Part shown: piece after piece, positions 19,988-39,089 of the stretch
Position numbering within the stretch: position 1 is the first letter of the stretch
How the letters are laid out: the number at the start of each line of letters is the position of its first letter
Source of the DNA: Escherichia phage HildyBeyeler
Sequence record: MZ501074
Direction: 5' to 3' (one strand)
DNA: 64,000 bases
The notes under the pieces: model-generated
What the model was told of the DNA's origin: nothing
Seen by the model: only the letters and a program-made list of their open reading frames with translations
The model's database searches: none
Position numbers and translations under genes: made by a program

Positions 19988-20158
19988 ATGAAAAACTTGA
20001 TCGTCATTGGTGTTAACACTCGCGGTATTCGTACTACGAAAACTGTTAAAACTTCTAACGTTGCTGAGATCACTACGAACCCTAAAAAGTTTGATTTCGC
20101 CAAAGTCTCAGCAGTTATGACAGAACAATCTTTTAACCAAGCGTTAGGAATGAAATAA
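19988..20158 (+). CDS. hypothetical small protein (56 aa)
   Basis: Not in ORF track (under 60 aa); GAGAGGAAG RBS; stop overlaps next ATG as TAATG. Confidence 0.45.
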   Translation: MKNLIVIGVNTRGIRTTKTVKTSNVAEITTNPKKFDFAKVSAVMTEQSFNQALGMK

Positions 20159-20601
20159 TGGGAGAGAATATTTTAGATGTTTTGCGTAGAGCTTTGCAGG
20201 ATTCTAAGTTTAATGGTTCTGATAAAGAAGTCGCTAAAAGCTATCAGACCATAATCGGGGATCTTCAGCGTATTGATAAAGATTTCATCACTTCTGAACA
20301 ATTTGTGTCTTATCTCAAAGCTCAACTAAAAAGCATTAACCAGATGAAAGCTAAACTTCATGGTCAAGATCTTGATAGTTATAGCTTGCAGTCCGCTCAG
20401 TATGAATACATTCTAAATAAGTGGTTGCAGGAGTATCTGCCTCCTCAGTTATCTGATACTGAGATTCGTAAATACTTTGCAGAATTAGTTAAGCTAAACC
20501 CTGGAATTACAAAAGGTATGCTGATGAAAGCGATTAAGGAAGAATTTCCTGGGCGTTATGATGGTGGTACTGCTGCTCAGATTGCTGGCGAATTTAATTA
20601 A
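20158..20601 (+). CDS. hypothetical protein
   Basis: ORF track. Confidence 0.5.
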   Translation: MGENILDVLRRALQDSKFNGSDKEVAKSYQTIIGDLQRIDKDFITSEQFVSYLKAQLKSINQMKAKLHGQDLDSYSLQSAQYEYILNKWLQEYLPPQLSDTEIRKYFAELVKLNPGITKGMLMKAIKEEFPGRYDGGTAAQIAGEFN

Positions 20602-25792: not shown

Positions 25793-25933
25793 TTGCTGAA
25801 AGAATTGTTAAATCAATTCAGGCACGCGTAGGAACACTGTCTCCGTAATTGAAAGATGAGGCACGGTTTGGAGAGGTATGCCGCTACACGCTACGGTGCT
25901 AACTCCGTCTAGGTGAAAATCCTAGTCAGCAAT
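25793..25933 (+). ncRNA. 141-nt tRNA-like structured RNA candidate
   Basis: Perfect 7-bp terminal pairing TTGCTGA/TCAGCAA, 6-bp hairpin GAATTG/CAATTC, T-arm-like CTAGG-TGAAAAT-CCTAG. Confidence 0.35.
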
Positions 25934-26130: not shown

Positions 26131-26316
26131 ATGTCCAAGAATGTGATTGCGCAGCTAGAAGTTCATCGTGATAGCACTATCAACAATATTAAGTGCCGAC
26201 AAAAAGATATTGAAGCTCAAAAGGCTGATCTTTTAATGAGTATTCGAGAGCTTAATGTACGAAAAGAGTTTCTTAAAGAACTTAATGCAGCTATTGAAAA
26301 ACTCAAAGCTGAGTAA
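26131..26316 (+). CDS. hypothetical small protein
   Basis: ORF track; AAGGAAA RBS. Confidence 0.4.
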   Translation: MSKNVIAQLEVHRDSTINNIKCRQKDIEAQKADLLMSIRELNVRKEFLKELNAAIEKLKAE

Positions 26317-26685: not shown

Positions 26686-27033
26686 ATGATTAATGCTAAA
26701 GAAGAATTGTTACTTGCCCTAAAGAATACTAATTCTGAAGTTAAGTGTATTAAGATAGAATTCGGTTATTATGGGGACAAAGAAGTTTTGGTATTACCCA
26801 TAGGTTACACAGAAAAAGATATTGAAGATTTTCTAAATAATCTAGACTTTAAATATGATTCTGGTTTCGGTGGACAATTGCTTTATGGTAACGTATGGTT
26901 TACTGATGGAACTTGGTTAGAACGTGGTGAATATGATGGTTCTGAATGGTGGGAATATAAGACTACACCAGCAATTCCAGAGGAATGCCGAACAATTAAT
27001 GGTGAAGTAGATCGTACTTTACTATTAAATTAA
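26686..27033 (+). CDS. hypothetical protein
   Basis: ORF track. Confidence 0.45.
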   Translation: MINAKEELLLALKNTNSEVKCIKIEFGYYGDKEVLVLPIGYTEKDIEDFLNNLDFKYDSGFGGQLLYGNVWFTDGTWLERGEYDGSEWWEYKTTPAIPEECRTINGEVDRTLLLN

Positions 27034-27155
27034 CAAAATCTCAGTGCAGAACACGGAGCTAGCAATTCGGAAATGCTGACTCATGATAAGCTGCCTATGT
27101 ACTTGCGAAGCGGTCGTGTCCAAGACTCGGACTCTTGCACTGAAAACAATCAAAC

Positions 27156-27276
27156 ATTCTAGCGTGGTTGATGGGGAAACCAGCTTGGCTAGGGCAGAAG
27201 CTCGTTCGATTCGAGTGAAAGAATGGTTCTCGTAAGTCCGCACAAGTGATAACAGGTTCGAGTCCTGTCTAGAATG
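27156..27276 (+). ncRNA. 121-nt tRNA-like structured RNA candidate
   Basis: Perfect 7-bp terminal pairing ATTCTAG/CTAGAAT, T-arm ACAGG-TTCGAGT-CCTGT, internal TTCGATT loop. Confidence 0.35.
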
Positions 27277-27425
27277 ACACTATAAAGTTTACTTATTATG
27301 TAGGTTCCGATAGACCGGCGGGTCTATTCTGGCATTTAAGAGAGGTCTCGCAAACTTCTTTGTCAGCCGTGGGGTTGATAGCCCCCAGGTGGCCTACACA
27401 ATAAGTAAATTTATGAAAAATGTAG

Positions 27426-27454
27426 TTGCTATTTAGCTTAATTCTCTGTATAAT
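27426..27454 (+). promoter_or_regulatory. sigma70-type promoter
   Basis: TTGCTA-17-TATAAT. Confidence 0.6.
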
Positions 27455-27486
27455 ATATTCTATAAAGTGAAGAGAAGGAAAGCAAA

Positions 27487-29496: not shown

Positions 29497-29591
29497 GGTA
29501 GGTCAATCCAACGGCTGGCGCTGGACTCCGACTTGAAATCGGTTGATCGTAGTGATACGGTGTAAGGGTTCGATCCCCTTACCTACCTCCA
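29497..29591 (+). tRNA. tRNA-Ser (anticodon TGA), class II
   Basis: Perfect GGTAGGT/ACCTACC acceptor, loop CTTGAAA, long variable arm, CCA. Confidence 0.65.
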
Positions 29592-30660: not shown

Positions 30661-30735
30661 GCGTGATTAGTTCAGTGGCTAGAACAACTGGCTTCCAACC
30701 AGTAGACACGAGTTCGACTCTCGTATCCCGCACCA
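30661..30735 (+). tRNA. tRNA-Gly (anticodon TCC)
   Basis: D-arm GTTC-AGTGGCTA-GAAC, stem ACTGG/CCAGT, loop CTTCCAA, CCA. Confidence 0.7.
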
Positions 30736-30749
30736 AATAAGGAATCTCT

Positions 30750-31001
30750 ATGCACGTTTTTGAGTTTCGTAATAAAAGTACCAATAAACGAGTTATTGTT
30801 ATTGGGGAAACATATCGAGCATATGAACAAACTGACGGCTCTGTTATCTTGAATGATGAGAAAGGGGGTTTTAGCTTTTATCCAGAAGAACCTTATGAAG
30901 AGTTTCGAAAACAATTTAACCTAGACTGGAGAAAGCATTTAAACACTGTTGCTTCATCTGTAGTACTGCCAACTACCAGTACTGTACTATCTAATGGCTG
31001 A
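30750..31001 (+). CDS. hypothetical protein
   Basis: ORF track; AAGGAA RBS. Confidence 0.4.
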   Translation: MHVFEFRNKSTNKRVIVIGETYRAYEQTDGSVILNDEKGGFSFYPEEPYEEFRKQFNLDWRKHLNTVASSVVLPTTSTVLSNG

Positions 31002-31158
31002 TAACCTAAAAGTCAAGATCGACAAACAAAAGAAACGTGTAGAAGTAGAGATTGGTGAAGAACGTGTAGCCTTCACCTTTGAATTTCTACAACAAATGGC
31101 AATGACAGTTATGACTGATAAGTCTCCTGTTATTGAAAAAGAAATCCCGTTGAAATAA
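30994..31158 (+). CDS. hypothetical small protein (54 aa)
   Basis: Not in ORF track; ATG overlaps upstream stop (ATGGCTGA); followed by hairpin. Confidence 0.3.
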   Translation: MADNLKVKIDKQKKRVEVEIGEERVAFTFEFLQQMAMTVMTDKSPVIEKEIPLK

Positions 31159-31166
31159 CGGGTTCT

Positions 31167-31253
31167 GCTGGGTTGGCAGAATGGTTGAATGCACCTGATT
31201 TGTAATCAGGAGGAGTAATCCCGTTGCAGGTTCGAATCCTGTGCCCAGCACCA
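31167..31253 (+). tRNA. tRNA with 15-nt variable region, anticodon loop reads TGT (identity uncertain)
   Basis: GCTGGGT/GCCCAGC acceptor, perfect stem CCTGA/TCAGG, loop TTTGTAA, CCA. Confidence 0.5.
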
Positions 31254-31267
31254 ATTTAAGGACTATT

Positions 31268-31435
31268 ATGTTTAAACTGTTAGTAGTTATCTGGTATAGT
31301 CAATCAAATAGAGCGAATACCTCCCACGTTATAGACTTTACTACTAAAAATGAAGCTGAAAAAGCATATGCTAATTTAATAGAACGCAATAAAGAATCTC
31401 GTAGTATAGTTTATGAAGTGACTAAACTTTATTAA
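31268..31435 (+). CDS. hypothetical small protein
   Basis: ATG 31268 after tRNA; AAGGAC RBS. Confidence 0.35.
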   Translation: MFKLLVVIWYSQSNRANTSHVIDFTTKNEAEKAYANLIERNKESRSIVYEVTKLY

Positions 31436-31443
31436 AAATTCAT

Positions 31444-31472
31444 TTGCTTTCCCTCTTATTTATTGTTATAAT
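31444..31472 (+). promoter_or_regulatory. sigma70-type promoter
   Basis: TTGCTT-17-TATAAT. Confidence 0.6.
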
Positions 31473-31502
31473 ATTTATATAAATTAATGAGAGGGAAACC
31501 AA

Positions 31503-31793
31503 ATGAAACGTTATCTTTCTGTTATGTTCCAAACCGGCGGCCAAAGATACACCTATGAATTTCCACCTTCCTGGAAAATCAGGGAAGGTGATCAAATAGT
31601 TGTGTTGACACCGCGTGAAGAATATAAAGTAGTGACGGTTAAACAAGTATTTCCAAAAGATCATGAACCAGCTATAGGCATCCGATATAAGATGATTCAT
31701 GGCGTGGTTCGTCAAGTACCACGAACTGAGGTAGAAGTAGATAATACTGGAGAAACTAAATTCCATTATACTTCTTACTTAGACAGTGTGTGA
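31503..31793 (+). CDS. hypothetical protein
   Basis: ORF track; GAGAGGGAAA RBS. Confidence 0.45.
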   Translation: MKRYLSVMFQTGGQRYTYEFPPSWKIREGDQIVVLTPREEYKVVTVKQVFPKDHEPAIGIRYKMIHGVVRQVPRTEVEVDNTGETKFHYTSYLDSV

Positions 31794-31807
31794 TGTAAAT
31801 ATTTTAA

Positions 31808-31884
31808 TGCTTCGGTAGCTTAGCGATCTAAAGCACTCGGCTGATAACCGAGAGATCAGGGGTTTAAATCCCTCCCGGAGTACC
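31808..31884 (+). tRNA. tRNA-Ile (anticodon GAT)
   Basis: D-stem GCTT/AAGC, perfect stem CTCGG/CCGAG, loop CTGATAA, CCA. Confidence 0.65.
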
Positions 31885-31981
31885 AAATCTAGGAATTAAG
31901 ACTATGCGTCCAGGAAAGTTTAAAAAAGCTAGTTGGTCTAAAGAGTACAAAGAATACTTACTTAGCCTAGTAAAACGTAAT

Positions 31982-32057
31982 AGTTAGTTGGCAGAGTGGT
32001 TATGCGCCTCCTTCATACGGAGCGACTACAGTGGTTCAAATCCACTACTAACTACCA
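31982..32057 (+). tRNA. tRNA with CAT anticodon (Met or Ile2)
   Basis: Perfect AGTTAGT/ACTAACT acceptor, loop TTCATAC, T-arm AGTGG-TTCAAAT-CCACT, CCA. Confidence 0.6.
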
Positions 32058-32070
32058 AACAGGAGATCTA

Positions 32071-32439
32071 ATGAAAGCGTATCAAAATCTTAAATCTGGC
32101 GTAATTAATATTGTTCATAATAATCAGATTATTCAACTGTACTCTAAAGATGGTGAACTTAAACAAAAGGTTCTAGTTGAAGATCTAGATGGTATCACAC
32201 CTCATTTTGACCCAGAATCCTTTCGTGAAGTCAAAGTGGAAGTCGCCCCTCAAATTGAAGGTGGTCAACACCTAAATGTCAATGTGTTAAGTCGTGATCA
32301 GCTTTTGGATGCGCAGAAACATCCTGAAAAATACCCTCAATTAACTATCCGTGTTTCAGGGTACGCTGTGCGTTTTAACGCACTGACGCGTGAACAGCAG
32401 AACGACGTTATTAGTCGTACATTTACTCAGGCGATGTAA
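32071..32439 (+). CDS. grcA: autonomous glycyl-radical cofactor (GrcA/YfiD-like)
   Basis: C-terminus [11 protein letters not shown]...[20 protein letters not shown] matches the PFL/YfiD glycyl-radical signature; ATG 32071 after AGGAG. Confidence 0.8.
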
Positions 32440-32520
32440 TGGGGCTTGGATACGGTTTCTACGAACTACGTAAGGTAGTCGAGCAAACTCCATTTATCTC
32501 CCAAGTTTTAGGAGAAATGT

Positions 32521-32835
32521 GTGGATCGAGCATTAAGACGTCATCACCGGCAACGTGTAAAGAACAACCGCAAGAAGTATTGGACAGTCTTCCCACATGA
32601 AGAAAGCCCTAAACGGTTAGGTATTATCACTACTACTCCTTGTATCTGTTCTTGTTGGATGTGCGGGAACCCTCGCAAACACTTTAAGAATAGTAAAGCA
32701 GGGATGAAAACCTCGGAGATTAGGAAAATGGAAGCAATGATTACGGATATTTCAAATGATGAATTTGATGGCTTCGTAGGATTCGGGGAAGATATTAGCT
32801 CGGACTGTTTCGAAGATGAGCTCCCAGGTCTATGA
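32521..32835 (+). CDS. hypothetical protein
   Basis: ORF track (GTG start after AGGAG). Confidence 0.4.
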   Translation: MDRALRRHHRQRVKNNRKKYWTVFPHEESPKRLGIITTTPCICSCWMCGNPRKHFKNSKAGMKTSEIRKMEAMITDISNDEFDGFVGFGEDISSDCFEDELPGL

Positions 32836-32843
32836 TTAATAAC

Positions 32844-32881
32844 AAACCCCAGCTATTGAATAAGTAGTCTGGGGTTTTTCT
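32844..32881 (+). terminator. rho-independent terminator
   Basis: AAACCCCAG...CTGGGGTTT stem followed by TTCTG. Confidence 0.6.
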
Positions 32882-32956
32882 GTATACAGGTAGATAATTT
32901 ATGTATAATAAAATTCATCCACATTAGGTTAATTCAAAAGACTTAATGGAGGTAAT

Positions 32957-33304
32957 ATGAGCCGTACTTATCGTAGACAAACTGGTGATCAGTGGTGGAA
33001 GTCTAAAGCTAATTACACCCAGGGATATACTTTCCTCAAAGCAAGTGACTACTACATTCGTGTTACTTATGCTAAATCCTGGGATGAGGTAGAACAGGAA
33101 ATGGAAGAAGCAACCATTCGTAATGAGAAAAAGGATGGTTATAGCTGGAATTCTGTTAGTAAGAATGTTAAGTGGCATTCTAATAAAATGGTTCGTCAAG
33201 GAAATCGTCAAGAACTCCACCGCGTGATGAAAGACCCAGAAAATTACGACTATAATCGCGATCATGACATGCGTAAGCGTGGGTTACGGTGGTGCTATGA
33301 CTAA
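32957..33304 (+). CDS. hypothetical protein
   Basis: ORF track; GGAGG RBS. Confidence 0.45.
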   Translation: MSRTYRRQTGDQWWKSKANYTQGYTFLKASDYYIRVTYAKSWDEVEQEMEEATIRNEKKDGYSWNSVSKNVKWHSNKMVRQGNRQELHRVMKDPENYDYNRDHDMRKRGLRWCYD

Positions 33305-33321
33305 ATTCTGAAATAATTCAT

Positions 33322-33350
33322 TTGCTAAACCTCTCTTTTCTTGCTATAAT
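33322..33350 (+). promoter_or_regulatory. sigma70-type promoter
   Basis: TTGCTA-17-TATAAT. Confidence 0.6.
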
Positions 33351-33380
33351 ATATTTATAAATTGATGAGAGAGGTTTGAA

Positions 33381-33662
33381 ATGAAAACTCGTCTAGACTG
33401 TGCTGTTCATGTTCTTGAACATGATGTTGTGGGAACCTGTATGTCTTATCACGAAGCAGGTCGTTTAATTAAAGAACGTGTGGCAGATGTATGTGGGTTG
33501 AAGATTACTGCTGAGGAAGCTGATGATCTTCTAGACCAGGCACTGGGGAAAACAGAAATATTCCTCTGCGATTCCTGCTCCTGGTGGTGTGAAGCTCACG
33601 AACATTCCTTCAACGATTATGATGTATGCCGTGACTGTAATGAGGGGGACCATGATGAATAA
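33381..33662 (+). CDS. hypothetical Cys-rich protein
   Basis: ORF track; C-terminal CDSCSWWC...CRDC cluster. Confidence 0.45.
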   Translation: MKTRLDCAVHVLEHDVVGTCMSYHEAGRLIKERVADVCGLKITAEEADDLLDQALGKTEIFLCDSCSWWCEAHEHSFNDYDVCRDCNEGDHDE

Positions 33663-33954
33663 GTTTATTGTTGCACTGATGGTTTCAGCAGTTAGTTTCG
33701 GTTCTCTAGCATCTACCAAAGTTTTTATGAAAAACGGTAATGTTAGGGTACAACAGAATGGTATTATTACCGAGTATGGTAAAGTGCGTGATATTAAAGA
33801 ACGTAATGGCAAAGTAGAAATATATACTAATAAAAACTTCTCTACTCCAGCCGTTACTGTTAGCAAACGCGGTGAAATAACCACTCAACGTACTAATAGC
33901 TCTAGTTCTTTTACTTGTCGTTATGATTGCGACTTTGAAGGTGAAGATGAATAA
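33652..33954 (+). CDS. hypothetical secreted protein
   Basis: Start moved to ATG 33652 (MMNKFIVALMVSAVSFGSLAS signal peptide). Confidence 0.45.
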   Translation: MMNKFIVALMVSAVSFGSLASTKVFMKNGNVRVQQNGIITEYGKVRDIKERNGKVEIYTNKNFSTPAVTVSKRGEITTQRTNSSSSFTCRYDCDFEGEDE

Positions 33955-34297
33955 TTTAGATCCTAGAATTAAATTTGCAATTACAGAAATCCAAGATCAA
34001 ATTGATGAAGACTTCACTGTTTGGTCAAGGTCCGGTAACGGGGAATACTGCCAGCTTTATAGCATGAAAATGGGTATCTCAATTGAGCTTAATATCAACT
34101 CTGAAGGTAGAGTAGAAGCCCAACCCATGTTCAGTGTTCCAGGCTTCTCTGGATTTGTTGCAGGTATGAAATTGTGTCTACCAAATAACCATCTTCATCG
34201 AGTTATTTGTCAACTAGAGACTATTAAACACTTCTTGCCAGAAGGTAATATTAATGACTACTACCATGAAGTTGTAGCAGCTCATATGATGAAATAA
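33947..34297 (+). CDS. hypothetical protein
   Basis: In-frame ATG 33947 after GGTGA RBS; track ORF 33923-34297. Confidence 0.4.
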   Translation: MNNLDPRIKFAITEIQDQIDEDFTVWSRSGNGEYCQLYSMKMGISIELNINSEGRVEAQPMFSVPGFSGFVAGMKLCLPNNHLHRVICQLETIKHFLPEGNINDYYHEVVAAHMMK

Positions 34298-34319
34298 TGC
34301 AAACGTCGGAGAGAAGAAC

Positions 34320-34616
34320 GTGAAAAGACTAAACATCAACAGCACAGTGCAGATTCCAGCAACTAAGGATATTTTAACCTTCCTACGGAGTGAAAACGCT
34401 CAGTTTTGGCATGATCATGTTGTAAAGAACGGTAGTACTCCAGATGTAGTTGCCTTTGCTAAAAAACGTATCGAGGAGTACAAAGATCCAGAGATTAAAG
34501 ATGGTATGATTACTATGCAGTTGTGGGTAGCTATGCAAACCTTTGGCCCCACCATGTGTTTAGGAAATACTCCATTATTTACAAATATTTTAATTAATGA
34601 AAAGGATTTGAAATGA
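34320..34616 (+). CDS. hypothetical protein
   Basis: ORF track. Confidence 0.45.
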   Translation: MKRLNINSTVQIPATKDILTFLRSENAQFWHDHVVKNGSTPDVVAFAKKRIEEYKDPEIKDGMITMQLWVAMQTFGPTMCLGNTPLFTNILINEKDLK

Positions 34617-34897
34617 TTGTTTCTCCATTTGCTCTTTGGTTCGTCATTGGGTCTATAGTTGCTATTTATAGTCTAATAGATGATTTATTCATCTCCAAGA
34701 ATAAAGATGTGTTCTTATATGTTGCACACAAAACACGCCCATCAGACCTAGCACCTCTTGATGATAAAACGCTACTAAGATGTGCTAGAGCTGCAATATT
34801 TATTATGGATATTCTGCTAGGACCAGCATCTGTATTTTTCTATTACCGAAAAACTCGTAATATGAAAAAATTTAAAGCAGAAATGCAGAATAACTAA
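34613..34897 (+). CDS. hypothetical membrane protein
   Basis: ORF track; two hydrophobic segments; ATGA overlap. Confidence 0.45.
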   Translation: MIVSPFALWFVIGSIVAIYSLIDDLFISKNKDVFLYVAHKTRPSDLAPLDDKTLLRCARAAIFIMDILLGPASVFFYYRKTRNMKKFKAEMQNN

Positions 34898-35007
34898 AGA
34901 ACTCGCGTAGGACCGAGTTGCGTCACCTGCAACTGTTACGGATAAGGGAGTCGTGCCCCTTAGTGCGGTAAGTGGTGAGTTGGTCGCTGACCCTAACTGG
35001 AGATGAT

Positions 35008-35352
35008 ATGACTATATTACTAATTCTTGTTACTACCTGGTTTTTAATCGGTGCTGGATATGCAATAGCTATTATTAGACATTTGGATGAACATTCTGCT
35101 GAATGGTTTGTTAAATATCTACGTATAGACAACAAGGATCACGAGTTTAAAGATGAAAAGCAGAAAAAAGCAGTTGAAGAAATGACAGGCGAAGAATGTT
35201 TATTCTATATGCGTGCAATAGGATTCTTAGGATTATTTAGTGCTGGCCCACTAGGTTTTACCATAGCTCCTTATAAAGAAACAGTAGACGATATTAAGTT
35301 ATGGAGAAATGCAGGGGTACTACGCAAAGCTAGAGAAACTAATATTACATAA
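35008..35352 (+). CDS. hypothetical membrane protein
   Basis: ATG 35008 after GGAG; N-terminal TM helix. Confidence 0.45.
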   Translation: MTILLILVTTWFLIGAGYAIAIIRHLDEHSAEWFVKYLRIDNKDHEFKDEKQKKAVEEMTGEECLFYMRAIGFLGLFSAGPLGFTIAPYKETVDDIKLWRNAGVLRKARETNIT

Positions 35353-35446
35353 GATTGACACTAAGTCAGCTTACTAGCAAAAGCAAATAATGACAAAGCC
35401 CAGCCTGCACTTTTGCAACTGGGCTATTTTTATAATAAAATTTTAG

Positions 35447-35475
35447 TTGCTTAGATGCCCAAACTTTTGTATAAT
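35447..35475 (+). promoter_or_regulatory. sigma70-type promoter
   Basis: TTGCTT-17-TATAAT. Confidence 0.6.
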
Positions 35476-35506
35476 ATGTTTATAGATTGAGGCAAGAGGA
35501 TTAAAT

Positions 35507-36187
35507 ATGAGGATTATTTCTAAGTTCGCCGATGTGTATGATCTGCAGAACAGTTTGTTTGACCCAGATCGTGTGTGGGAACGTAAAACTGAAGAGCTAA
35601 CAATAAAAGCCCCAGATGATGACAACTATACGATCATGCAAGAACGTAGGATTGCTCGTATTGAGGGAAAGATTGGTTACTTTAAAATTTTGCCTTTCTT
35701 CCTAGCTGGGGAGATTTACTGGTTATACCACATTGATGTACTGGATACCCAAGTAAAAACCTTCAGTTTGGACGAGGCGTTAGAAATTTTGGAGGAGAAG
35801 GGATGGTCAACAGGGTTTTCTTTGCTAGACATAAATAGGGGGAAGCCAAAAGAGTCTATCTTAGCATGGCAAGAAGAAGTTACCCCCAAAGCTAAAGAAG
35901 CCTTAACTGAGTTAAGAGTACCCTTAGCAATTCTAGACTCAGTAGTTCCAAATGATAAAGATAACAATAAATACTTCAAGGTTATAACTAATCCACGCCT
36001 ACACCTATCAGGAATACCGTGGCAGAGTGTGGAACCTAACTTATATCGACTGCACCAAAGAATCGAGCAGTATATTTGGGGTGTACTAGGAACTGGTGAG
36101 CCTGATATGATTACTGTGTCAGATAAAGACCGCCTAGCAGCACATGGATTTGATACGGTTACGTCATTCAGGAATATGAAAAGATGA
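35507..36187 (+). CDS. hypothetical protein
   Basis: ORF track; AAGAGGA RBS. Confidence 0.5.
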   Translation: MRIISKFADVYDLQNSLFDPDRVWERKTEELTIKAPDDDNYTIMQERRIARIEGKIGYFKILPFFLAGEIYWLYHIDVLDTQVKTFSLDEALEILEEKGWSTGFSLLDINRGKPKESILAWQEEVTPKAKEALTELRVPLAILDSVVPNDKDNNKYFKVITNPRLHLSGIPWQSVEPNLYRLHQRIEQYIWGVLGTGEPDMITVSDKDRLAAHGFDTVTSFRNMKR

Positions 36188-36627
36188 TAAAAAACTTTAT
36201 TAGTTCTCTATGGCAAGGTAAATGGTATATCCTGGGAGCAGGTCTAGCGATAGGCATCGGATTCGGTGCTTATCACTTAGTAGATAAAGTGGAGACTTTA
36301 GCAGGAGATCTTGCGGTAGCTACTAAAAAGATTTCTTCCCTAGAAACTTCCCTCAATAAGGTGAAAGCTGAAAGCGAACTTCGTGAGACTAGAATGAATC
36401 AGTATTTCACAATGAATAATATTTCGCAAGCAGATCTAGACAAAAAGATTAAGCAGTTAGATAAAGCTCTTAGTCGCCAAGATATTATAGCTGCAAAGCC
36501 TGGATTGGTAACATTAATTGCTAAAAAGCAGAGTAAAGAATTTGAGGAGAGATTAGCATGTCTTTCTGGAAGTGTGGAATACTGCTCGCAGCCGCAATCA
36601 CAATCACAGGCTGTGCACAAGAAATAA
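36184..36627 (+). CDS. i-spanin-like protein (N-terminal TM plus coiled coil)
   Basis: ILGAGLAIGIGFGAY TM helix then coiled coil; overlaps downstream lipoprotein gene. Confidence 0.4.
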   Translation: MIKNFISSLWQGKWYILGAGLAIGIGFGAYHLVDKVETLAGDLAVATKKISSLETSLNKVKAESELRETRMNQYFTMNNISQADLDKKIKQLDKALSRQDIIAAKPGLVTLIAKKQSKEFEERLACLSGSVEYCSQPQSQSQAVHKK

Positions 36628-36911
36628 AGCCAGAGCCCTCTCATGAGCTACCAACAGCTCACGTAGATTGGCCTAAAGGACTTCAACCTTGTAGCTTTGA
36701 CTTTAAGTTTGAAAAGAAAGTAGCTACAAATGGAGAAGAGGGCGTAGTAGTTGTTGTACCATATAAAGATTGGAATATGTTGGCAAAATGCCGTGAGGCA
36801 GAATATTCCTTTATTTCACGACTGACTAGTATGGTTTGCTTCTATCGCCAAGATTTACAAGAAAAACGTTGCTTAATTTACTATCCACCCATTAACAGTA
36901 GGAAAGATTAA
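36558..36911 (+). CDS. o-spanin-like lipoprotein
   Basis: Signal peptide with lipobox ITGC; start embedded in 3-prime end of 36184-36627. Confidence 0.4.
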   Translation: MSFWKCGILLAAAITITGCAQEIKPEPSHELPTAHVDWPKGLQPCSFDFKFEKKVATNGEEGVVVVVPYKDWNMLAKCREAEYSFISRLTSMVCFYRQDLQEKRCLIYYPPINSRKD

Positions 36912-37663
36912 TGTCAGTATTAGTAGGTTTACATGGCGAGGCAGGTGCAGGAAAAGATACCGTTGCAAAATTAATTATCGATTGGTGTAATGACACGTAT
37001 CCAACGTGTTTACCACGTCGTTACAGTTTTGCTAAACCAGTTTATGAGCTTGCATCCGTAATCCTCGGGGTAACTCCAGAGTTTCTAGGAGAGCGCAGGG
37101 GAAAAGAAATTGACCAATGGTTTACGGTCACACAATCTCAATTGGAGCGAGCTAGAGACGTATGGTTTAAATATGGTATCGATAAGTTTGAAGACTTCTC
37201 GTACGTTTGGCCGATTTTTGAGGAAAAATATCTTAATCCTCAACAACTTATCTCAGAGAATAAAGAAGACGGACTTTATAGTTTATTTATTTCTCCGAGA
37301 AAAATGTTACAGCTCGTAGGAACAGAGCTAGGAAGGCAGCTGGTACATGAACGCATTTGGCTCATAATTCTGGAGCAATCCATCGCTAAAGACGACCCAG
37401 ATGTCGCCGTAATAACAGATGTGAGATTCCCCAATGAAGGAGAGTTACTCAGAGAAACGAACCATTTAGATATGGATTCTTTACTAATAAATGTAGTGCC
37501 CGCTGAGCAGAAGTTCACTATTAAATCAGATCATCCATCTGAAAGTGGTATTCCTACAAAATATATCACTCACGAATTAGTTAATAAATTCGATGGTATC
37601 AATAACCTTAAACTAGAAGTGTATAACTTCTGTGACTTAGAGCTAGAACCACTAGTTGGATAA
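36911..37663 (+). CDS. deoxynucleoside monophosphate kinase-like P-loop kinase
   Basis: GLHGEAGAGKDT P-loop at N-terminus; 250 aa. Confidence 0.5.
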   Translation: MSVLVGLHGEAGAGKDTVAKLIIDWCNDTYPTCLPRRYSFAKPVYELASVILGVTPEFLGERRGKEIDQWFTVTQSQLERARDVWFKYGIDKFEDFSYVWPIFEEKYLNPQQLISENKEDGLYSLFISPRKMLQLVGTELGRQLVHERIWLIILEQSIAKDDPDVAVITDVRFPNEGELLRETNHLDMDSLLINVVPAEQKFTIKSDHPSESGIPTKYITHELVNKFDGINNLKLEVYNFCDLELEPLVG

Positions 37664-37675
37664 TCAAGGATTGCT

Positions 37676-38269
37676 ATGGCTAATAAAAAAGAAGAAAAGA
37701 CTAACCTGTTTCACTCCATTCGCCAATCTAACGAGTATACCTTTTTCTTTGATGAAGAACTTGGTCCGCCTGATGAATACCGTGATTTATCAATGGTACT
37801 TATGCAGGCAAATGAGGACGACGAAATTAATCTGATGATTAATGGCCCTGGTGGCTATGTTGATACCGCTGCACAGTTATCTAACTTAATTGCCAATTGC
37901 CGTGGAACAGTTATAGGACATCTGATTGGTCCTAGTGCTTCTGCTTATTGCACAATTTTCCTATCCTGTCATAGATGGGTAGTACATCCACATGCTACGC
38001 TAATGGGACACACGTTCTCTGGCGGATTCTGTGAGAAAGGTCAAGAAATCAAGAAAGCCTATGAATCTTACAACAAGTTTGTAGAAGATATGATGCTAGA
38101 TGTCTACTATCCGTTCTTCTCAATAGATGAAATCGACGAGATGGTAAAAGACAACAAAAATATCTATCTAGATAGCAAGGAAATTCATAAGCGTATTGAA
38201 ATCTTGGCAAAATATCGATCTGAGCAATATAATAAAGCCCAGTTACCTCAATCCTGGGGGCACAACTAA
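37676..38269 (+). CDS. ClpP-family serine peptidase-like protein
   Basis: INGPGGYV, GPSASAY (Ser) and HPHATLMGH (His) in ClpP order. Confidence 0.45.
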   Translation: MANKKEEKTNLFHSIRQSNEYTFFFDEELGPPDEYRDLSMVLMQANEDDEINLMINGPGGYVDTAAQLSNLIANCRGTVIGHLIGPSASAYCTIFLSCHRWVVHPHATLMGHTFSGGFCEKGQEIKKAYESYNKFVEDMMLDVYYPFFSIDEIDEMVKDNKNIYLDSKEIHKRIEILAKYRSEQYNKAQLPQSWGHN

Positions 38270-38285
38270 GAGTAAGTAGTTTTAA

Positions 38286-38316
38286 GCCAGGGTTTAACGA
38301 CCCTGGCCTTTCTTTT
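38286..38316 (+). terminator. rho-independent terminator
   Basis: GCCAGGGT...ACCCTGGC stem followed by CTTTCTTTT. Confidence 0.65.
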
Positions 38317-38378
38317 ATCTAAAATTCTTCTTGACAACGACATAATTTTGTGCTCCAAGTGTAACGTTTAAAAACCAA

Positions 38379-38407
38379 TTGAAATTTTCCTCCAAAATTA
38401 GTATAAT
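38379..38407 (+). promoter_or_regulatory. sigma70-type promoter
   Basis: TTGAAA-17-TATAAT; also TTGACA at 38329. Confidence 0.55.
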
Positions 38408-38432
38408 GGTACTGGTTAGAGGAGGTTACAAA

Positions 38433-39089
38433 TTGGAAAAGTTCTTACAATTATTAACAGTACTGCTCCAAGAAGCGAAAGACCCAGCATCGCTTCTTAA
38501 ACGTCTGCTAACTATCTTAGTTGCTGTCATTATTTTCTTATTTGTTAGTAATACTAGTGAGGTGATGTCATTCTTAAAGACTTTCTCCACGTCTGCGGTT
38601 CTACAGGATGTTCAAACTCAAAGGATAAGTAATTTTCCTAACGTAGCTAGAGAAAAGAGCATGGTGCTTTTTTCCCAAACGGGTGCGGATGCTGTTTTTG
38701 TAGTCAAGTATAAACCCGATGCCATTAATGATTATTCTAACATTATTGCATGGGAAAGCAATGCGCAATTAGATAGGGCTGACTTGGCTGATAAAGCGGT
38801 AAATAAGACGTCTGAGCTATATAGACGTCACTTAGACGGCTTTAACTACGCATCGGATTTAAGTGTAAAAGTAAATAAATACATGGGGTTAAATATACCT
38901 GCGTTTAAGAACGTTACTTTTAATTACATATACACTTGTCCGTATTTCAATCTAAACAATATCTATGCTGGATATATTGGTATTGCTTGGAAAGATAATC
39001 CTGTAGATACAGCTGATTCTGAACAGTTCAAGGAATATTTAGCAAAGCTCTGTTCCCCACAACAGAGATCTTTAGGTAGGTCAATATGA
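38433..39089 (+). CDS. holin-like membrane protein
   Basis: TTG 38433 after GAGGAGG (218 codons); TM segment; immediately upstream of endolysin with ATGA overlap. Confidence 0.5.
   Translation: MEKFLQLLTVLLQEAKDPASLLKRLLTILVAVIIFLFVSNTSEVMSFLKTFSTSAVLQDVQTQRISNFPNVAREKSMVLFSQTGADAVFVVKYKPDAINDYSNIIAWESNAQLDRADLADKAVNKTSELYRRHLDGFNYASDLSVKVNKYMGLNIPAFKNVTFNYIYTCPYFNLNNIYAGYIGIAWKDNPVDTADSEQFKEYLAKLCSPQQRSLGRSI

What the first reader, a model, noticed from the sequence alone, without database searches (positions are those of the whole stretch)
27156..27276. Second long tRNA-like element (121 nt) in a 450-bp ORF-free gap
ATTCTAG (27156) pairs perfectly with CTAGAAT (27269), next to a canonical T-arm ACAGG-TTCGAGT-CCTGT, a D-arm-like TGGTT-GATGGGGA-AACCA hairpin and an internal TTCGATT loop. 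Two such elements (with 25793-25933) are unlikely by chance. The flanking 27034-27155 and 27277-27420 also contain strong hairpins.
Basis: partly seen in the sequence, partly recalled or inferred. Interest (0 to 1): 0.55.

Follow-up and report, generated by a model that had tools for sequence, protein, structure and literature searches.

The report
Anticodon-less tRNA mimic of T5-like phages
The flagged element is real: it is the counterpart of phage T5's little-known "RNA2", a tRNA-shaped RNA whose anticodon loop is replaced by a conserved 48-base folded module, and it belongs to an undescribed RNA family found in many large phages whose function is still unknown.

Summary
Observation confirmed. 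Window 27156-27279 (+) has a 7-bp acceptor stem, D-arm, 5-bp anticodon-position stem and canonical T-arm. The window is a T5-like phage, and the element is the ortholog (region 97% identical) of T5 rna2, annotated in NC_005859 as "tRNA-like stable RNA with unknown functions".

New here: it belongs to a family found across Demerecviridae, Acinetobacter T4-likes and uncultured phage contigs up to 363 kb. About 37 distinct members were collected. In each, a ~48-nt module replaces the anticodon after loop position 35: GGGY/RUCC helix, A/GUAA internal loop, a second T-loop hairpin, a GG-containing strand, and an invariant GCA.

Covariation supports all seven helices (93% of cells paired vs 59% in shuffles). 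A model built without any T5-like sequence finds the window copy at 112 bits; the best ordinary tRNA scores 37.

It is not a tRNA, an intron-bearing tRNA, tmRNA, YrlA or T4 rnaC/D, and Rfam 15 has no family for it. Only 3 of 37 members encode CCA, versus 249 of 259 neighbouring tRNAs, so it is probably not charged.

Most likely it is a tRNA-framed, non-decoding mimic matured by tRNA-processing enzymes. The partner of its second "elbow" is unknown.

The parts
27156..27162 (+). Acceptor-stem 5' strand (AUUCUAG)
   Evidence: Pairs perfectly with 27269-27275. All 7 pairs show compensatory changes across the family.
27165..27182 (+). D-arm: stem UGGU(U)/(A)ACCA, loop GAUGGGGA containing the G18-G19-like GG
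   Evidence: All 4 D-stem pairs covary. GG is conserved in the family consensus.
27183..27187 (+). Anticodon-position stem, 5' strand (GCUUG); pairs with 27243-27247 (CAAGU)
   Evidence: All 5 pairs covary. Rfam's tRNA model aligns the equivalent stem as the anticodon stem in relatives.
27188..27191 (+). 5' junction (GCUA): the first four nucleotides of the former 7-nt loop
   Evidence: The 5' junction is 4 nt in 29 of 37 members. The two junctions sum to 7 nt in 24 of 37.
27192..27239 (+). 48-nt module replacing the anticodon. P1 GGGC 27192-95 / GUCC 27236-39. A 27196 opposite GUAA 27232-35. P2 GA 27197-98 / UC 27230-31. Second T-loop hairpin: stem 27200-04 / 27212-16, loop UUCGAUU 27205-11. 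Linker 27217-29 with conserved GG at 27225-26.
   Evidence: Covariation in P1 (4th pair), P2 and the hairpin, seen both in a MAFFT/RNAalifold alignment and in model-fitted alignments. The T-loop signature positions are conserved. The third P1 pair is an invariant G-U, which fixes the strand as +.
27240..27242 (+). Invariant 3' junction GCA
   Evidence: GCA in all members. Partly built in by the search patterns, but also present in the copies found by BLAST alone.
27243..27251 (+). Anticodon-position stem 3' strand (CAAGU), then the 4-nt variable loop (GAUA)
27252..27268 (+). Canonical T-arm ACAGG-UUCGAGU-CCUGU
   Evidence: 4 of the 5 pairs covary and the GGUUCRAnnCC consensus holds.
27269..27279 (+). 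Acceptor-stem 3' strand CUAGAAU, discriminator G27276, then ACA (no encoded CCA)
   Evidence: The T5 rna2 annotation ends at the equivalent of 27279. CCA is encoded in 3 of 37 members versus 249 of 259 neighbouring tRNAs.
27034..27154 (+). Upstream neighbour in the same gap: structured stretch closed by CAGUGCA/UGCACUG. Not part of the RNA2 unit.
   Evidence: Fold z = -1.4. Present only in a subset of T5-likes. Not annotated in T5.
27286..27412 (+). Downstream neighbour: ortholog of T5 rnaIV (about 27298-27400) inside a 17-bp closing stem
   Evidence: Alignment to T5. Fold z = -5.7, with 0 of 200 shuffles folding as well.
27426..27454 (+). Promoter (TTGCTA-17-TATAAT) of the next transcription unit, corresponding to T5 promoter P13a. 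It marks the downstream end of the unit that contains the RNA.
   Evidence: Best promoter-like site in the scan, 10 of 12 matches. T5 annotation plus alignment.

Best explanation
Window 27156-27279 (+) is the ortholog of bacteriophage T5 rna2. It belongs to a phage-restricted family of tRNA-framed, anticodon-less RNAs.

Shown here: the RNA folds as a complete tRNA cloverleaf. After position 35 of the former anticodon loop sits a conserved ~48-nt module. The module is an interrupted 11-13-bp hairpin capped by a genuine T-loop, with a GG-bearing strand, a GUAA bulge and an invariant GCA.

Inferred:
1. It is co-transcribed with the neighbouring tRNAs and cut out by the tRNA-processing machinery (RNase P at the 5' end, nucleases at the 3' end). 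The tRNA frame therefore serves as a natural scaffold for processing and stability.
2. It is neither aminoacylated nor used in decoding.
3. The module's T-loop and GG strand form a second tRNA-like 'elbow'. The RNA acts in trans as a tRNA mimic (decoy or adaptor) for a factor that reads tRNA shape or the T-loop corner. That factor could be from the host or the phage.
4. The role is accessory and probably conflict-related, not essential.

My probabilities for each layer:
- identity and structure: about 0.95
- tRNA-type maturation: about 0.8
- not charged or decoding: about 0.75
- trans-acting mimic working through the second elbow: about 0.4

The overall confidence given (0.55) is for the whole statement taken together.
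For: Identity: the region is 97% identical to T5, and rna2 and rnaIV map onto it.

Family:
- BLAST reaches Pectobacterium and Klebsiella T5-likes and T4-like Acinetobacter phage 133.
- All loci from the first module-anchored viral scan share the architecture, including contigs of 204-363 kb (further members).
- The leave-clade-out model R3 scores the window copy at 112.1 bits versus 36.7 or less for tRNAs.

Structure:
- 93.3% of cells pair, versus 59.1% in shuffles and 31-48% with slid partners. The covariation score is 0.79 versus 0.17. All 7 helices show double changes (repeated without T5-likes).
- A model-independent MAFFT/RNAalifold run gives the same core helices.

tRNA frame:
- Ordinary tRNAs match the family models when the module is skipped.
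- Rfam's tRNA model scores 3 relatives above its gathering score, with only the anticodon loop replaced by 51-59 nt.
- The body without the module is 65-78 nt (mostly 65-73); the window body is 72 nt.

Second elbow: the inner hairpin keeps the G-C closing pair and the loop positions U, U, C, R, A as strictly as the true T-arm, and a GG follows.

Processing context:
- 27 of 34 members have tRNAs within 1.5 kb, always on the same strand, and often only 4-9 nt away.
- In the window there is no terminator-like site on the + strand between the upstream tRNA and the next promoter.

Not charged:
- CCA is encoded in 3 of 37 members versus 249 of 259 neighbouring tRNAs.
- The discriminator and acceptor sequence are unconstrained.
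- The terminal stem extends to 9-15 bp in some members.

Accessory role: T5Mos carries a viable 30661-38625 deletion, and T5 tRNA-region deletions are described as non-essential (PMC11464382). This assumes the paper's coordinates use NC_005859 numbering, in which the deletion covers rna2.

Phage-restricted: only 2 of 73 pattern hits in bacterial genomes are real, and both lie in phage-style tRNA arrays on MAG contigs of 330 and 167 kb.
Against: - No expression, end-mapping, modification or binding data were available. 'Stable RNA' rests on a GenBank note whose primary papers I could not read.
- The single-sequence fold is not exceptional (z = -0.94).
- The GG-to-T-loop docking is inferred from motif conservation only. 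The return strand from the GG to P2 is short (1-3 nt), which may be sterically tight.
- No partner was identified. All-vs-all ORF clustering found no protein shared across member loci. The YqeY lead did not generalise.
- The Klebsiella-phage copies do encode U-CCA, so charging in some lineages is not excluded. The host CCA-adding enzyme could also act on the others.
- The invariance of GGG and GUAAnUCCGCA is partly imposed by the text patterns used to collect members.
- Two of the three covariation counts use alignments fitted to the model.
Confidence: 0.55

Rival explanations
1. It is an intron-containing tRNA gene. The 48-nt module is removed after transcription, leaving a functional decoding tRNA.
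For: The module sits at a fixed point in what would be a 7-nt loop: 4 nt, then the module, then 3 nt, summing to 7 in 24 of 37 members. Rfam's tRNA model accepts three relatives as tRNA with a long insertion. The bodies are tRNA-sized.
Against: - The loop left after removal (nCnn-GCA) has mostly C, not the universal U, at position 33, and C rather than a purine at position 37. Its last three bases are fixed as GCA whatever the phage.
- The junction sum is 6, 8 or 9 in 13 of 37 members.
- 34 of 37 members lack the CCA that 96% of neighbouring tRNAs encode, and some have 11-15-bp terminal stems.
- The module is 45-57 nt, far below a self-splicing group I intron, and no intron family is hit in Rfam at E<=10.
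- The module is more conserved than the body in 96% of pairs, the opposite of what is expected for an intron.
- T5 annotates the full 125 nt as the RNA.
Confidence: 0.06
2. It is a decayed tRNA relic or mere processing punctuation. It gives RNase P and RNase E entry points in the polycistronic early transcript but has no function of its own.
For: The T5-type body is degenerate: it lacks U8 and gets no Rfam tRNA hit even at E<=10. The region is dispensable in the laboratory. It lies between an ORF and another structured RNA at the end of a transcription unit.
Against: A relic would not keep a 48-nt module with compensatory changes and a perfect T-loop signature across Demerecviridae, T4-like Acinetobacter phages and jumbo-phage contigs. 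Processing needs only the tRNA frame, not the module, yet the module is the better conserved part.
Confidence: 0.1
3. It is a chargeable, ribosome-acting tRNA-like RNA (functionally tmRNA-like). After CCA addition it is aminoacylated and enters ribosomes without decoding.
For: It has a full L-shape frame. The Klebsiella-phage copies encode U-CCA. The host CCA-adding enzyme and RNase BN could mature CCA-less ends (own knowledge from T4 tRNA biology).
Against: - CCA is encoded in only 3 of 37 members although the same phages encode it for 249 of 259 tRNAs.
- No conserved identity element: the 1-72 and 3-70 pairs and the discriminator all vary, G3-U70 occurs in 4 sequences, and the window has U3-A70.
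- Terminal stems of 11-15 bp in several members bury the 3' end.
- ARAGORN finds no tmRNA, and there is no tag reading frame.
Confidence: 0.08
4. It is the RNA subunit or substrate of a phage tRNA-metabolism protein, specifically the YqeY/GatB-tail-like protein (window ORF 20158-20601, T5.081), possibly as part of an RNA-repair module.
For: A Pfam YqeY protein (E 1e-16 to 3e-18) lies 200-470 nt upstream on the same strand in the members that sit outside tRNA arrays (L140, L049/L297, L242). The window and T5 encode a YqeY-like ORF at the head of the tRNA cluster. The GatB tail domain contacts the tRNA D-loop corner (own knowledge). In BcepSauron, YqeY follows an RtcB ligase.
Against: The adjacency is confined to one related lineage (their YqeY proteins are 42-48% identical). 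In the window the two genes are 6.5 kb apart. No family member lies within 8 kb of YqeY in SCTP-2, PA5oct, phi92 or BcepSauron. YqeY is common in tRNA-rich phages generally, so co-occurrence may only reflect shared gene islands.
Confidence: 0.1
5. The module is itself a nested acceptor/T-arm minihelix that RNase P (or another tRNA enzyme) cleaves at the junction before GGG. This would yield a nicked two-piece RNA, for example a bait or substrate for RNA ligases.
For: P1 + P2 + the inner stem stack to about 11-13 bp under a T-loop, the length RNase P measures. The module starts with G and is followed by GCA, which resembles RCCA (the RNase P rules are own knowledge).
Against: This is purely geometric reasoning. 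The stem is interrupted by a 4-nt and a ~12-nt bulge, and GCA is internal, not a free 3' end. T5 annotates a single 125-nt RNA.
Confidence: 0.05

Closest known systems
Bacteriophage T5 rna2 (T5s06, NC_005859 32959-33083, 'tRNA-like stable RNA with unknown functions')
   Same: Orthologous. Same position downstream of the 115-aa ORF (T5.067) and upstream of rnaIV and promoter P13a. The surrounding 470 nt are 97% identical, and the ends agree within 1 nt.
   Different: A handful of substitutions only. The T5 record gives no structure, family or function. Almost no other phage record annotates it; many place spurious CDSs over it.
Canonical tRNA (Rfam RF00005)
   Same: 7-bp acceptor stem, D-arm with GG, 5-bp anticodon stem, 4-5-nt variable loop, T-arm GGUUCRAnnCC. 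It is embedded in tRNA arrays on the same strand. Three relatives pass Rfam's gathering score.
   Different: No anticodon loop: a 48-nt module sits in its place. There would be no U33 or R37 even if the module were removed. No encoded CCA. The window copy is missed by ARAGORN and by RF00005 even at E<=10.
Engineered 'tRNA scaffolds' (an RNA of interest inserted in place of the anticodon loop for stable expression in E. coli; Ponchon & Dardel 2007, own knowledge)
   Same: The same design logic: the tRNA frame provides processing and nuclease resistance, and the payload replaces the anticodon loop.
   Different: This one is natural, phage-encoded and evolutionarily conserved, and its payload is itself a T-loop module.
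YrlA / bacterial Y RNA-like tRNA mimics (Rfam RF02553; Chen et al. 2014, PMC4201824)
   Same: A modular non-coding RNA containing a tRNA-like T-loop/D-loop domain, not used in decoding, and also found in some phages.
   Different: The topology is permuted: in YrlA the termini form the Ro-binding stem. The best Rfam YrlA score is 23.8 bits against a gathering score of 69, and there is no hit on the window. No Ro/Rsr partner was seen among shared neighbours.
tmRNA tRNA-like domain
   Same: A tRNA-like RNA without an anticodon that is matured like a tRNA.
   Different: RNA2 keeps a D-stem and an anticodon-position stem. It has no G3-U70, no encoded CCA, no pseudoknots and no tag reading frame. 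ARAGORN calls no tmRNA.
Phage T4 species 1 and 2 RNAs (rnaC, rnaD)
   Same: Small stable RNAs of unknown function encoded inside a phage tRNA cluster, with tRNA-like 3' parts.
   Different: No homology. The family model gives rnaC 13.7 bits (E 0.48) and does not hit rnaD, and neither contains the module.
T-loop-based tRNA-elbow readers and mimics (T-box stem I, RNase P S-domain, ribosomal L1 stalk; own knowledge)
   Same: They use the T-loop motif as a structural and recognition unit.
   Different: Those are interdigitated T-loops that bind an elbow. Here a hairpin T-loop plus a GG strand appears to imitate an elbow. No sequence or family relationship was tested.

Membership tests
T5 rna2-type phage tRNA-like RNA (the family defined here) | Orthology with the annotated T5 rna2 (synteny plus sequence) | tested here: met
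   97% identity over 470 nt. rna2 maps to window 27155-27279, flanked by the T5.067 homolog, rnaIV and P13a.
T5 rna2-type phage tRNA-like RNA (the family defined here) | Matches a structure-and-sequence model built without any T5-like member | tested here: met
   R3 (29 non-Demerecviridae members) scores 112.1 bits, E 6e-26, full length, all pairs standard. tRNAs score 36.7 bits or less.
T5 rna2-type phage tRNA-like RNA (the family defined here) | Accumulates as a discrete stable RNA in infected cells | not testable with these tools
   Only the GenBank note 'stable RNA'. No transcriptome data were found.
tRNA (Rfam RF00005) | Cloverleaf helices maintained by covariation | tested here: met
   Acceptor 7/7, D-stem 4/4, anticodon-position stem 5/5 and T-arm 4/5 pairs show double changes.
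tRNA (Rfam RF00005) | 7-nt anticodon loop with U33, an anticodon and a purine at 37 | tested here: not met
   The loop is replaced by 4 nt + a 45-57-nt module + GCA. Even with the module removed, position 33 is mostly C and position 37 is C.
tRNA (Rfam RF00005) | Reaches the curated gathering score or is called by tRNA finders | tested here: not met
   The window copy gets no RF00005 hit at gathering or at E<=10, and ARAGORN makes no call. Three relatives with canonical bodies do pass (45.9-50.6 bits).
tRNA (Rfam RF00005) | 3' CCA end and aminoacylation | tested here: inconclusive
   CCA is encoded in 3 of 37 members versus 249 of 259 neighbouring tRNAs; the window has G-ACA. Post-transcriptional CCA addition and charging cannot be tested here.
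Intron-containing tRNA (group I or bulge-helix-bulge type) | Removing the insert restores a canonical anticodon loop | tested here: not met
   The hypothetical loop nCnnGCA lacks U33 and R37, and the junction sum differs from 7 in 13 of 37 members.
Intron-containing tRNA (group I or bulge-helix-bulge type) | The insert has a self-splicing core or a splicing-endonuclease motif | tested here: not met
   The module is 45-57 nt. No intron family is hit in Rfam at E<=10. The helices found are P1/P2 and a T-loop hairpin, not a bulge-helix-bulge.
tmRNA | tRNA-like domain with G3-U70 and CCA, plus a tag reading frame and pseudoknots | tested here: not met
   ARAGORN finds no tmRNA in the window. The window has U3-A70 and no CCA. 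At 124 nt there is no room for a tag ORF.
YrlA / Y RNA-like (Rfam RF02553) | Reaches the family's gathering score | tested here: not met
   No hit on the window at E<=10. The best score among 12 member loci is 23.8 bits against a gathering score of 69.
YrlA / Y RNA-like (Rfam RF02553) | Encoded next to a Ro60/Rsr ortholog | not tested
   No protein family is shared across member loci by blastp clustering, but Rsr was not searched for specifically.
T4 rnaC / rnaD stable RNAs | Sequence or structure homology to T4 species 1 or 2 RNA | tested here: not met
   On the T4 locus L007, rnaC scores 13.7 bits (E 0.48) with R1 and has no hit above tRNA level with R2. No module motif is present in the sequence.
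T-loop structural motif (inner hairpin 27200-27216) | G-C closing pair and loop positions U1, U2, C3, R4, A5 | tested here: met
   In the non-redundant set: closing G 100% / C 93%; U 93%, U 100%, C 93%, G/A 93%, A 97%. The stem covaries.
T-loop structural motif (inner hairpin 27200-27216) | A distal purine (GG) docks into the loop to form an elbow | not testable with these tools
   GG is conserved at 87-90% in the following strand. Docking needs probing or a solved structure.

The most novel reading that the evidence does not exclude
The RNA2 family is a widespread phage weapon or hijacking tool made of RNA. It would be a two-elbowed, uncleavable, unchargeable tRNA look-alike that binds a conserved bacterial reader of tRNA shape and titrates, blocks or re-targets it. 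Candidate readers are a tRNA-directed immune nuclease, RNase P, or the ribosomal E-site/L1 stalk. That would make it the first RNA-only, tRNA-mimicking counter-defence or takeover factor, shared by T5-like, T4-like and jumbo phages.
Probability: 0.2. Interest if true: 0.85.

Novelty: new variant of a known kind. Interest (0 to 1): 0.62.

Why it matters
T5's "stable RNAs of unknown function" have sat in the reference annotation for about two decades without explanation.

This analysis shows that one of them is not a T5 curiosity. It is the founding member of a structured RNA family that is absent from Rfam 15 and unannotated in hundreds of phage genomes, some of which carry spurious protein calls over it. 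The family spans phages from 100 kb to over 360 kb.

The analysis gives it a testable architecture: a tRNA frame, a fixed insertion point, and a second T-loop "elbow". It also narrows the possible roles to an RNA that is not decoding, probably not charged, and dispensable in the laboratory.

Phage tRNA islands have recently been shown to counter tRNA-cleaving immunity (PARIS, retron Eco7, Septu), so a conserved non-decoding tRNA mimic in the same islands is an obvious candidate for a new RNA-based layer of that conflict.

On the practical side, the family models would correct annotation, and the RNA is a natural precedent for tRNA-scaffold RNA expression.

Tried and rejected
1. Loose text patterns. 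GTAANTCCGCA..GGTTC in viral contigs gave 114 matches, of which only one (L140) was real. The module-anchored pattern in bacterial genomes gave 73 hits, close to my chance estimate, and only 2 were real by the model. Most of the metagenome hits were also chance.
2. Homology to T4 rnaC/rnaD: rejected.
3. A cellular origin: rejected for lack of any convincing chromosomal copy.
4. YqeY as an obligate partner: adjacency holds in one lineage only, and no family member lies near YqeY in four other phages.
5. A universally co-occurring protein: none found by all-vs-all blastp of 1,304 ORFs from 34 loci.
6. A recent origin of each body from a specific tRNA isotype: bodies are only generically tRNA-like (0.65-0.78 identity to any tRNA), with no consistent isotype.
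7. The linker UGAAAG as a codon-like 'specifier' for tRNA-Glu: dropped because the linker is not conserved across the family.
8. By-eye resemblances of CGUAAnUCCGCA to tmRNA PK1 or the 23S GTPase-centre RNA, and of A/GUAA to a kink-turn or UAA/GAN motif: recalled from memory only. The architectures do not match and nothing was tested, so none is claimed.
9. Divergent paralogs: the long low-scoring model hits turned out to be class-II tRNAs or other insert-bearing tRNA-like RNAs, not family members.
10. Literature: eight full-text searches found no description of the family. The original T5 RNA papers are not in the library.
Full report
**Observation.** ATTCTAG (27156-27162) is perfectly complementary to CTAGAAT (27269-27275). 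The hairpin ACAGG-TTCGAGT-CCTGT (27252-27268) abuts that 3' strand exactly as a T-arm abuts an acceptor stem. TGGTT-GATGGGGA-AACCA (27165-27182) follows two bases after the 5' strand, like a D-arm. An internal TTCGATT loop lies at 27205-27211. ARAGORN finds 21 tRNAs on the + strand between 20861 and 32057 but does not call this element. Rfam 15 gives no hit on it at the gathering threshold or at E<=10. The single-sequence fold reproduces the cloverleaf-like frame but is not thermodynamically unusual (z = -0.94). The downstream flank 27280-27420 is unusual (z = -5.7) and the upstream flank 27034-27154 is not (z = -1.4).

**What the window is, and what the element is called.** The 27000-27480 stretch matches 419 phage records by megablast. 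The best is Salmonella phage Tennessee at 98.8%, and all matches are T5-like. The T5 reference NC_005859 annotates two RNAs and a promoter directly downstream of the 115-aa ORF T5.067, which is window ORF 26686-27033:
- misc_RNA rna2 (T5s06, 32959-33083), noted as "tRNA-like stable RNA with unknown functions";
- rnaIV;
- promoter P13a.

The window and T5 are 97% identical over this stretch. rna2 maps to window 27155-27279 and rnaIV to about 27298-27400. So the flagged element is the ortholog of an already annotated but uncharacterised T5 RNA. In most other records the stretch is unannotated or carries CDS calls such as "hypothetical protein" or "excisionase".

**A much wider family.**
- Sensitive BLAST showed the 27155-27278 core in more distant Demerecviridae: Pectobacterium DU_PP_V and the Klebsiella Sugarlandvirus group. 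Its inner part also matched the T4-like Acinetobacter phage 133, in a gap between tRNA-Gly and tRNA-Cys.
- A pattern anchored on two conserved blocks (TTCGATTC...CGTAANTCCGCA) returned 42 viral loci. All showed the same architecture, including contigs of 204, 311, 359 and 364 kb.
- A whole-module pattern added members from viral and metagenome collections.
- Looser patterns and the huge collections gave mainly chance hits, as estimated beforehand, so every candidate was checked by eye or by model.
- In one-genome-per-species bacterial contigs, only 2 of 73 pattern hits were real. Both sit in phage-style tRNA arrays on MAG contigs of 330 and 167 kb. I found no evidence for cellular copies.
- Cultured carriers include phages of Escherichia, Salmonella, Klebsiella, Pectobacterium, Proteus, Providencia and Acinetobacter.

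**Structure.**
- A plain MAFFT alignment of 25 members folded with RNAalifold already gave compensatory changes in the stem at the anticodon-stem position, in a GGGY/RUCC helix, in a two-pair continuation, in the inner hairpin and in the T-arm.
- I built a covariance model from nine T5-like and Klebsiella-phage copies with a hand-set structure. It recovered all members at 34-150 bits. It also hit ordinary tRNAs at 13-36 bits by skipping the insert, which shows that the frame is a tRNA body.
- On the resulting 39-row alignment, 93.3% of cells form standard pairs, versus 59.1% in column shuffles and 31-48% when partners are slid. The covariation score is 0.789 versus 0.174. All seven helices contain pairs changed on both sides.
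- Because that alignment is fitted to the model, I repeated the count on 29 members with no Demerecviridae and got the same result: 92.2% versus 58.0%, and 0.812 versus 0.176.
- I then used those 29 to build a leave-clade-out model. It finds window 27156-27279 at 112.1 bits (E about 6e-26) with every pair standard, while the best tRNA in the window scores 36.7 bits.
- A broader model separates members (67-124 bits) from tRNAs (41 bits or less), with one copy per locus.
- The third pair of the GGGY/RUCC helix is an invariant G-U. It would be A-C on the other strand, so the RNA is on the + strand.

**Anatomy.** In window coordinates:
- acceptor stem 27156-62 / 27269-75;
- CG 27163-64;
- D-arm 27165-82;
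- five-pair stem 27183-87 / 27243-47;
- junction GCUA 27188-91;
- module 27192-27239;
- junction GCA 27240-42;
- variable loop GAUA 27248-51;
- T-arm 27252-68;
- discriminator G 27276, then ACA.

The module consists of:
- P1 (GGGC / GUCC);
- a single A opposite GUAA;
- P2 (GA / UC);
- a hairpin GCUCG-UUCGAUU-CGAGU;
- a 13-nt strand GAAAGAAUGGUUC.

Across a non-redundant set of members, the hairpin keeps the G-C closing pair and the loop positions U, U, C, purine, A as strictly as the real T-arm. The GG in the following strand is 87-90% conserved. The linker before it (UGAAAG in T5) is variable.

The 5' junction is 4 nt in 29 of 37 members, and the 3' junction is GCA (plus one extra base in 7). 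The two junctions sum to 7 nt in 24 of 37. So the module sits after position 35 of what was once a 7-nt anticodon loop. The module is 45-57 nt (mode 48). The body without it is 65-78 nt, and 72 nt in the window.

Rfam's own tRNA model scores three relatives with canonical bodies at 45.9-50.6 bits, against a gathering score of 29. It aligns every arm normally and replaces only the anticodon loop by 51-59 nt.

**What it is not.**
- It is not a decoding tRNA: it has no anticodon loop.
- It is not a spliceable tRNA. After removal of the module the loop would read nCnn-GCA, with C rather than U at position 33, C rather than a purine at 37, and three bases fixed regardless of phage. The insert is also far too small for a self-splicing intron.
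- It is not tmRNA, YrlA (23.8 bits against a gathering score of 69) or a relative of T4 rnaC/rnaD.
The 25793-25933 element is a separate RNA conserved in 218 T5-like records, and the family models do not hit it.

**Context and likely biogenesis.** 27 of 34 member loci have tRNAs within 1.5 kb, always on the same strand. In a dozen the neighbouring tRNA is only 4-9 nt away, which is the spacing of tRNAs in polycistronic arrays. In the window, the element lies 501 nt after tRNA-Lys, behind the T5.067 homolog. No terminator-like site intervenes on the + strand. It is followed by rnaIV and then the strongest promoter-like site of the region (27426-27454), which is the T5 P13a equivalent. From established tRNA biology, I infer co-transcription with the tRNAs and excision by RNase P and 3' nucleases. 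This was not tested.

**Charging.** Neighbouring tRNAs in the same loci end in an encoded CCA in 249 of 259 cases. Family members do so in 3 of 37; the window has G-ACA. The discriminator is A, U, C or G in 13, 9, 8 and 7 members. The first and third acceptor pairs vary freely. In several members the terminal helix continues to 9-15 bp. This argues against aminoacylation as the conserved function, although the Klebsiella-phage copies (U-CCA) and host CCA addition leave a door open.

**Dispensability.** The PARIS study reports that T5Mos is viable with a deletion of 30661-38625, and that T5 variants with deletions in the tRNA region are non-essential (PMC11464382). If those coordinates follow NC_005859, rna2 lies inside the deletion. 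That fits an accessory role.

**Search for a partner.**
- Clustering 1,304 ORFs from 34 loci found no protein shared across the family.
- One lead emerged. In the members outside tRNA arrays (L140, L049/L297, L242), a YqeY-family protein (Pfam PF09424) lies 200-470 nt upstream on the same strand. The window also encodes a YqeY-like ORF at 20158-20601, the homolog of T5.081 "tRNA amidotransferase".
- YqeY-like genes occur in 121 phage records of many kinds.
- No family member lies within 8 kb of YqeY in SCTP-2, PA5oct, phi92 or BcepSauron.
- The association is therefore lineage-specific and unproven.

**Mechanism.** The best-supported reading is a natural "tRNA scaffold". The frame supplies maturation and stability. 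The payload is a T-loop hairpin plus a GG strand that probably closes into a second tRNA-like elbow on an extended anticodon arm. Such an RNA cannot decode and is probably not charged, yet it would still look like a tRNA to proteins or RNAs that read tRNA shape or the T-loop corner. I therefore favour a trans-acting mimic (decoy or adaptor) with an accessory, possibly conflict-related role. The specific partner remains unknown. The rivals are an intron-bearing tRNA, a relic or processing punctuation, a chargeable ribosome-acting RNA, a YqeY ribonucleoprotein, and a nested RNase P substrate. Each is listed with its evidence and the result that would refute it.

**Novelty and limits.** The window element itself is known as an annotation (T5 rna2). 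I could not find the following in Rfam 15 or in the searchable literature: the family, its breadth, the fixed insertion point, the second T-loop module, and the CCA contrast.

Limits:
- Members were collected largely with text patterns that require GGG and GUAAnUCCGCA, so the invariance of those blocks is partly circular. Only the BLAST-found copies are independent of the patterns.
- Two of the three covariation counts use model-fitted alignments.
- No expression, end-mapping, modification or binding data exist here.

Noticed in passing
It has tRNA-like ends (UUGCUGA/UCAGCAA, and a T-arm-like CUAGG-UGAAAAU-CCUAG). It is conserved in 218 T5-like phage records and almost never annotated. It is absent at this spot in T5, where CDS T5.069 lies instead. 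The RNA2 family models do not hit it, so it is a different RNA.
   Followed up: partly
window 27286-27412 (+): Ortholog of T5 rnaIV ('stable RNA with unknown functions'). It has a 17-bp closing stem enclosing three hairpins, one of them T-arm-like (UGGGG-UUGAUAG-CCCCA). The fold z-score is -5.7. It directly precedes the next promoter, so it may also protect or terminate the 3' end of the transcript.
   Followed up: partly
window 27034-27154 (+): Structured stretch closed by CAGUGCA/UGCACUG, with a hairpin GUCC-AAGACUC-GGAC next to the 3' strand. It is not annotated in T5, is present only in a subset of T5-likes, and is not significant on its own (z = -1.4).
   Followed up: partly
window 27025-27243 (-) and 27083-27235 (+); L001 2526-2744: Small mechanical ORFs overlap the RNA gene. 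Several GenBank records annotate them as 'hypothetical protein' or 'excisionase'. These are probably spurious protein calls over a non-coding RNA.
   Followed up: no
window 20158-20601 (+): A 147-aa YqeY/GatB-tail-like ORF (homolog of T5.081 'tRNA amidotransferase') sits at the head of the tRNA cluster. YqeY-like genes occur in 121 phage records. In BcepSauron the gene follows an RtcB 'tRNA splicing ligase' and precedes an endonuclease and a phosphoesterase.
   Followed up: partly
window 29497-29591 (+): A 95-nt class-II tRNA-like sequence ending in CCA, with anticodon loop CUUGAAA (UGA, serine). ARAGORN does not call it and Rfam does not list it at the gathering threshold. It is seen only as a weak hit of the family models.
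   Followed up: no
L242 4524-4661 (-); L140 8968-9097 (+); L041 8798-8913 (+): Other tRNA bodies carrying large, different inserts at the anticodon position (116-138 nt in total; the L140 copy ends in ACCA). tRNA-framed RNAs seem to recur in these phage tRNA islands.
   Followed up: no
L291 347-414 (-): A 68-nt tRNA-like sequence lacking the whole anticodon arm (Rfam tRNA 42.4 bits, with 17 model positions replaced by 13 nt). It lies about 30 nt from the family member at 447-570.
   Followed up: no
L317 1109-1226 and flanks; L047, L050, L369: In some jumbo-phage members the terminal helix continues well beyond 7 bp: 15 bp in L317 and 11 bp in L047/L050/L369. This suggests different end processing (for example RNase III) in those lineages.
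   Followed up: no
window 26131-26316 (+): The 61-aa ORF between tRNA-Asn and tRNA-Asp matches Pfam DUF7337 (E 2e-31), a family of unknown function embedded in the tRNA cluster.
   Followed up: no
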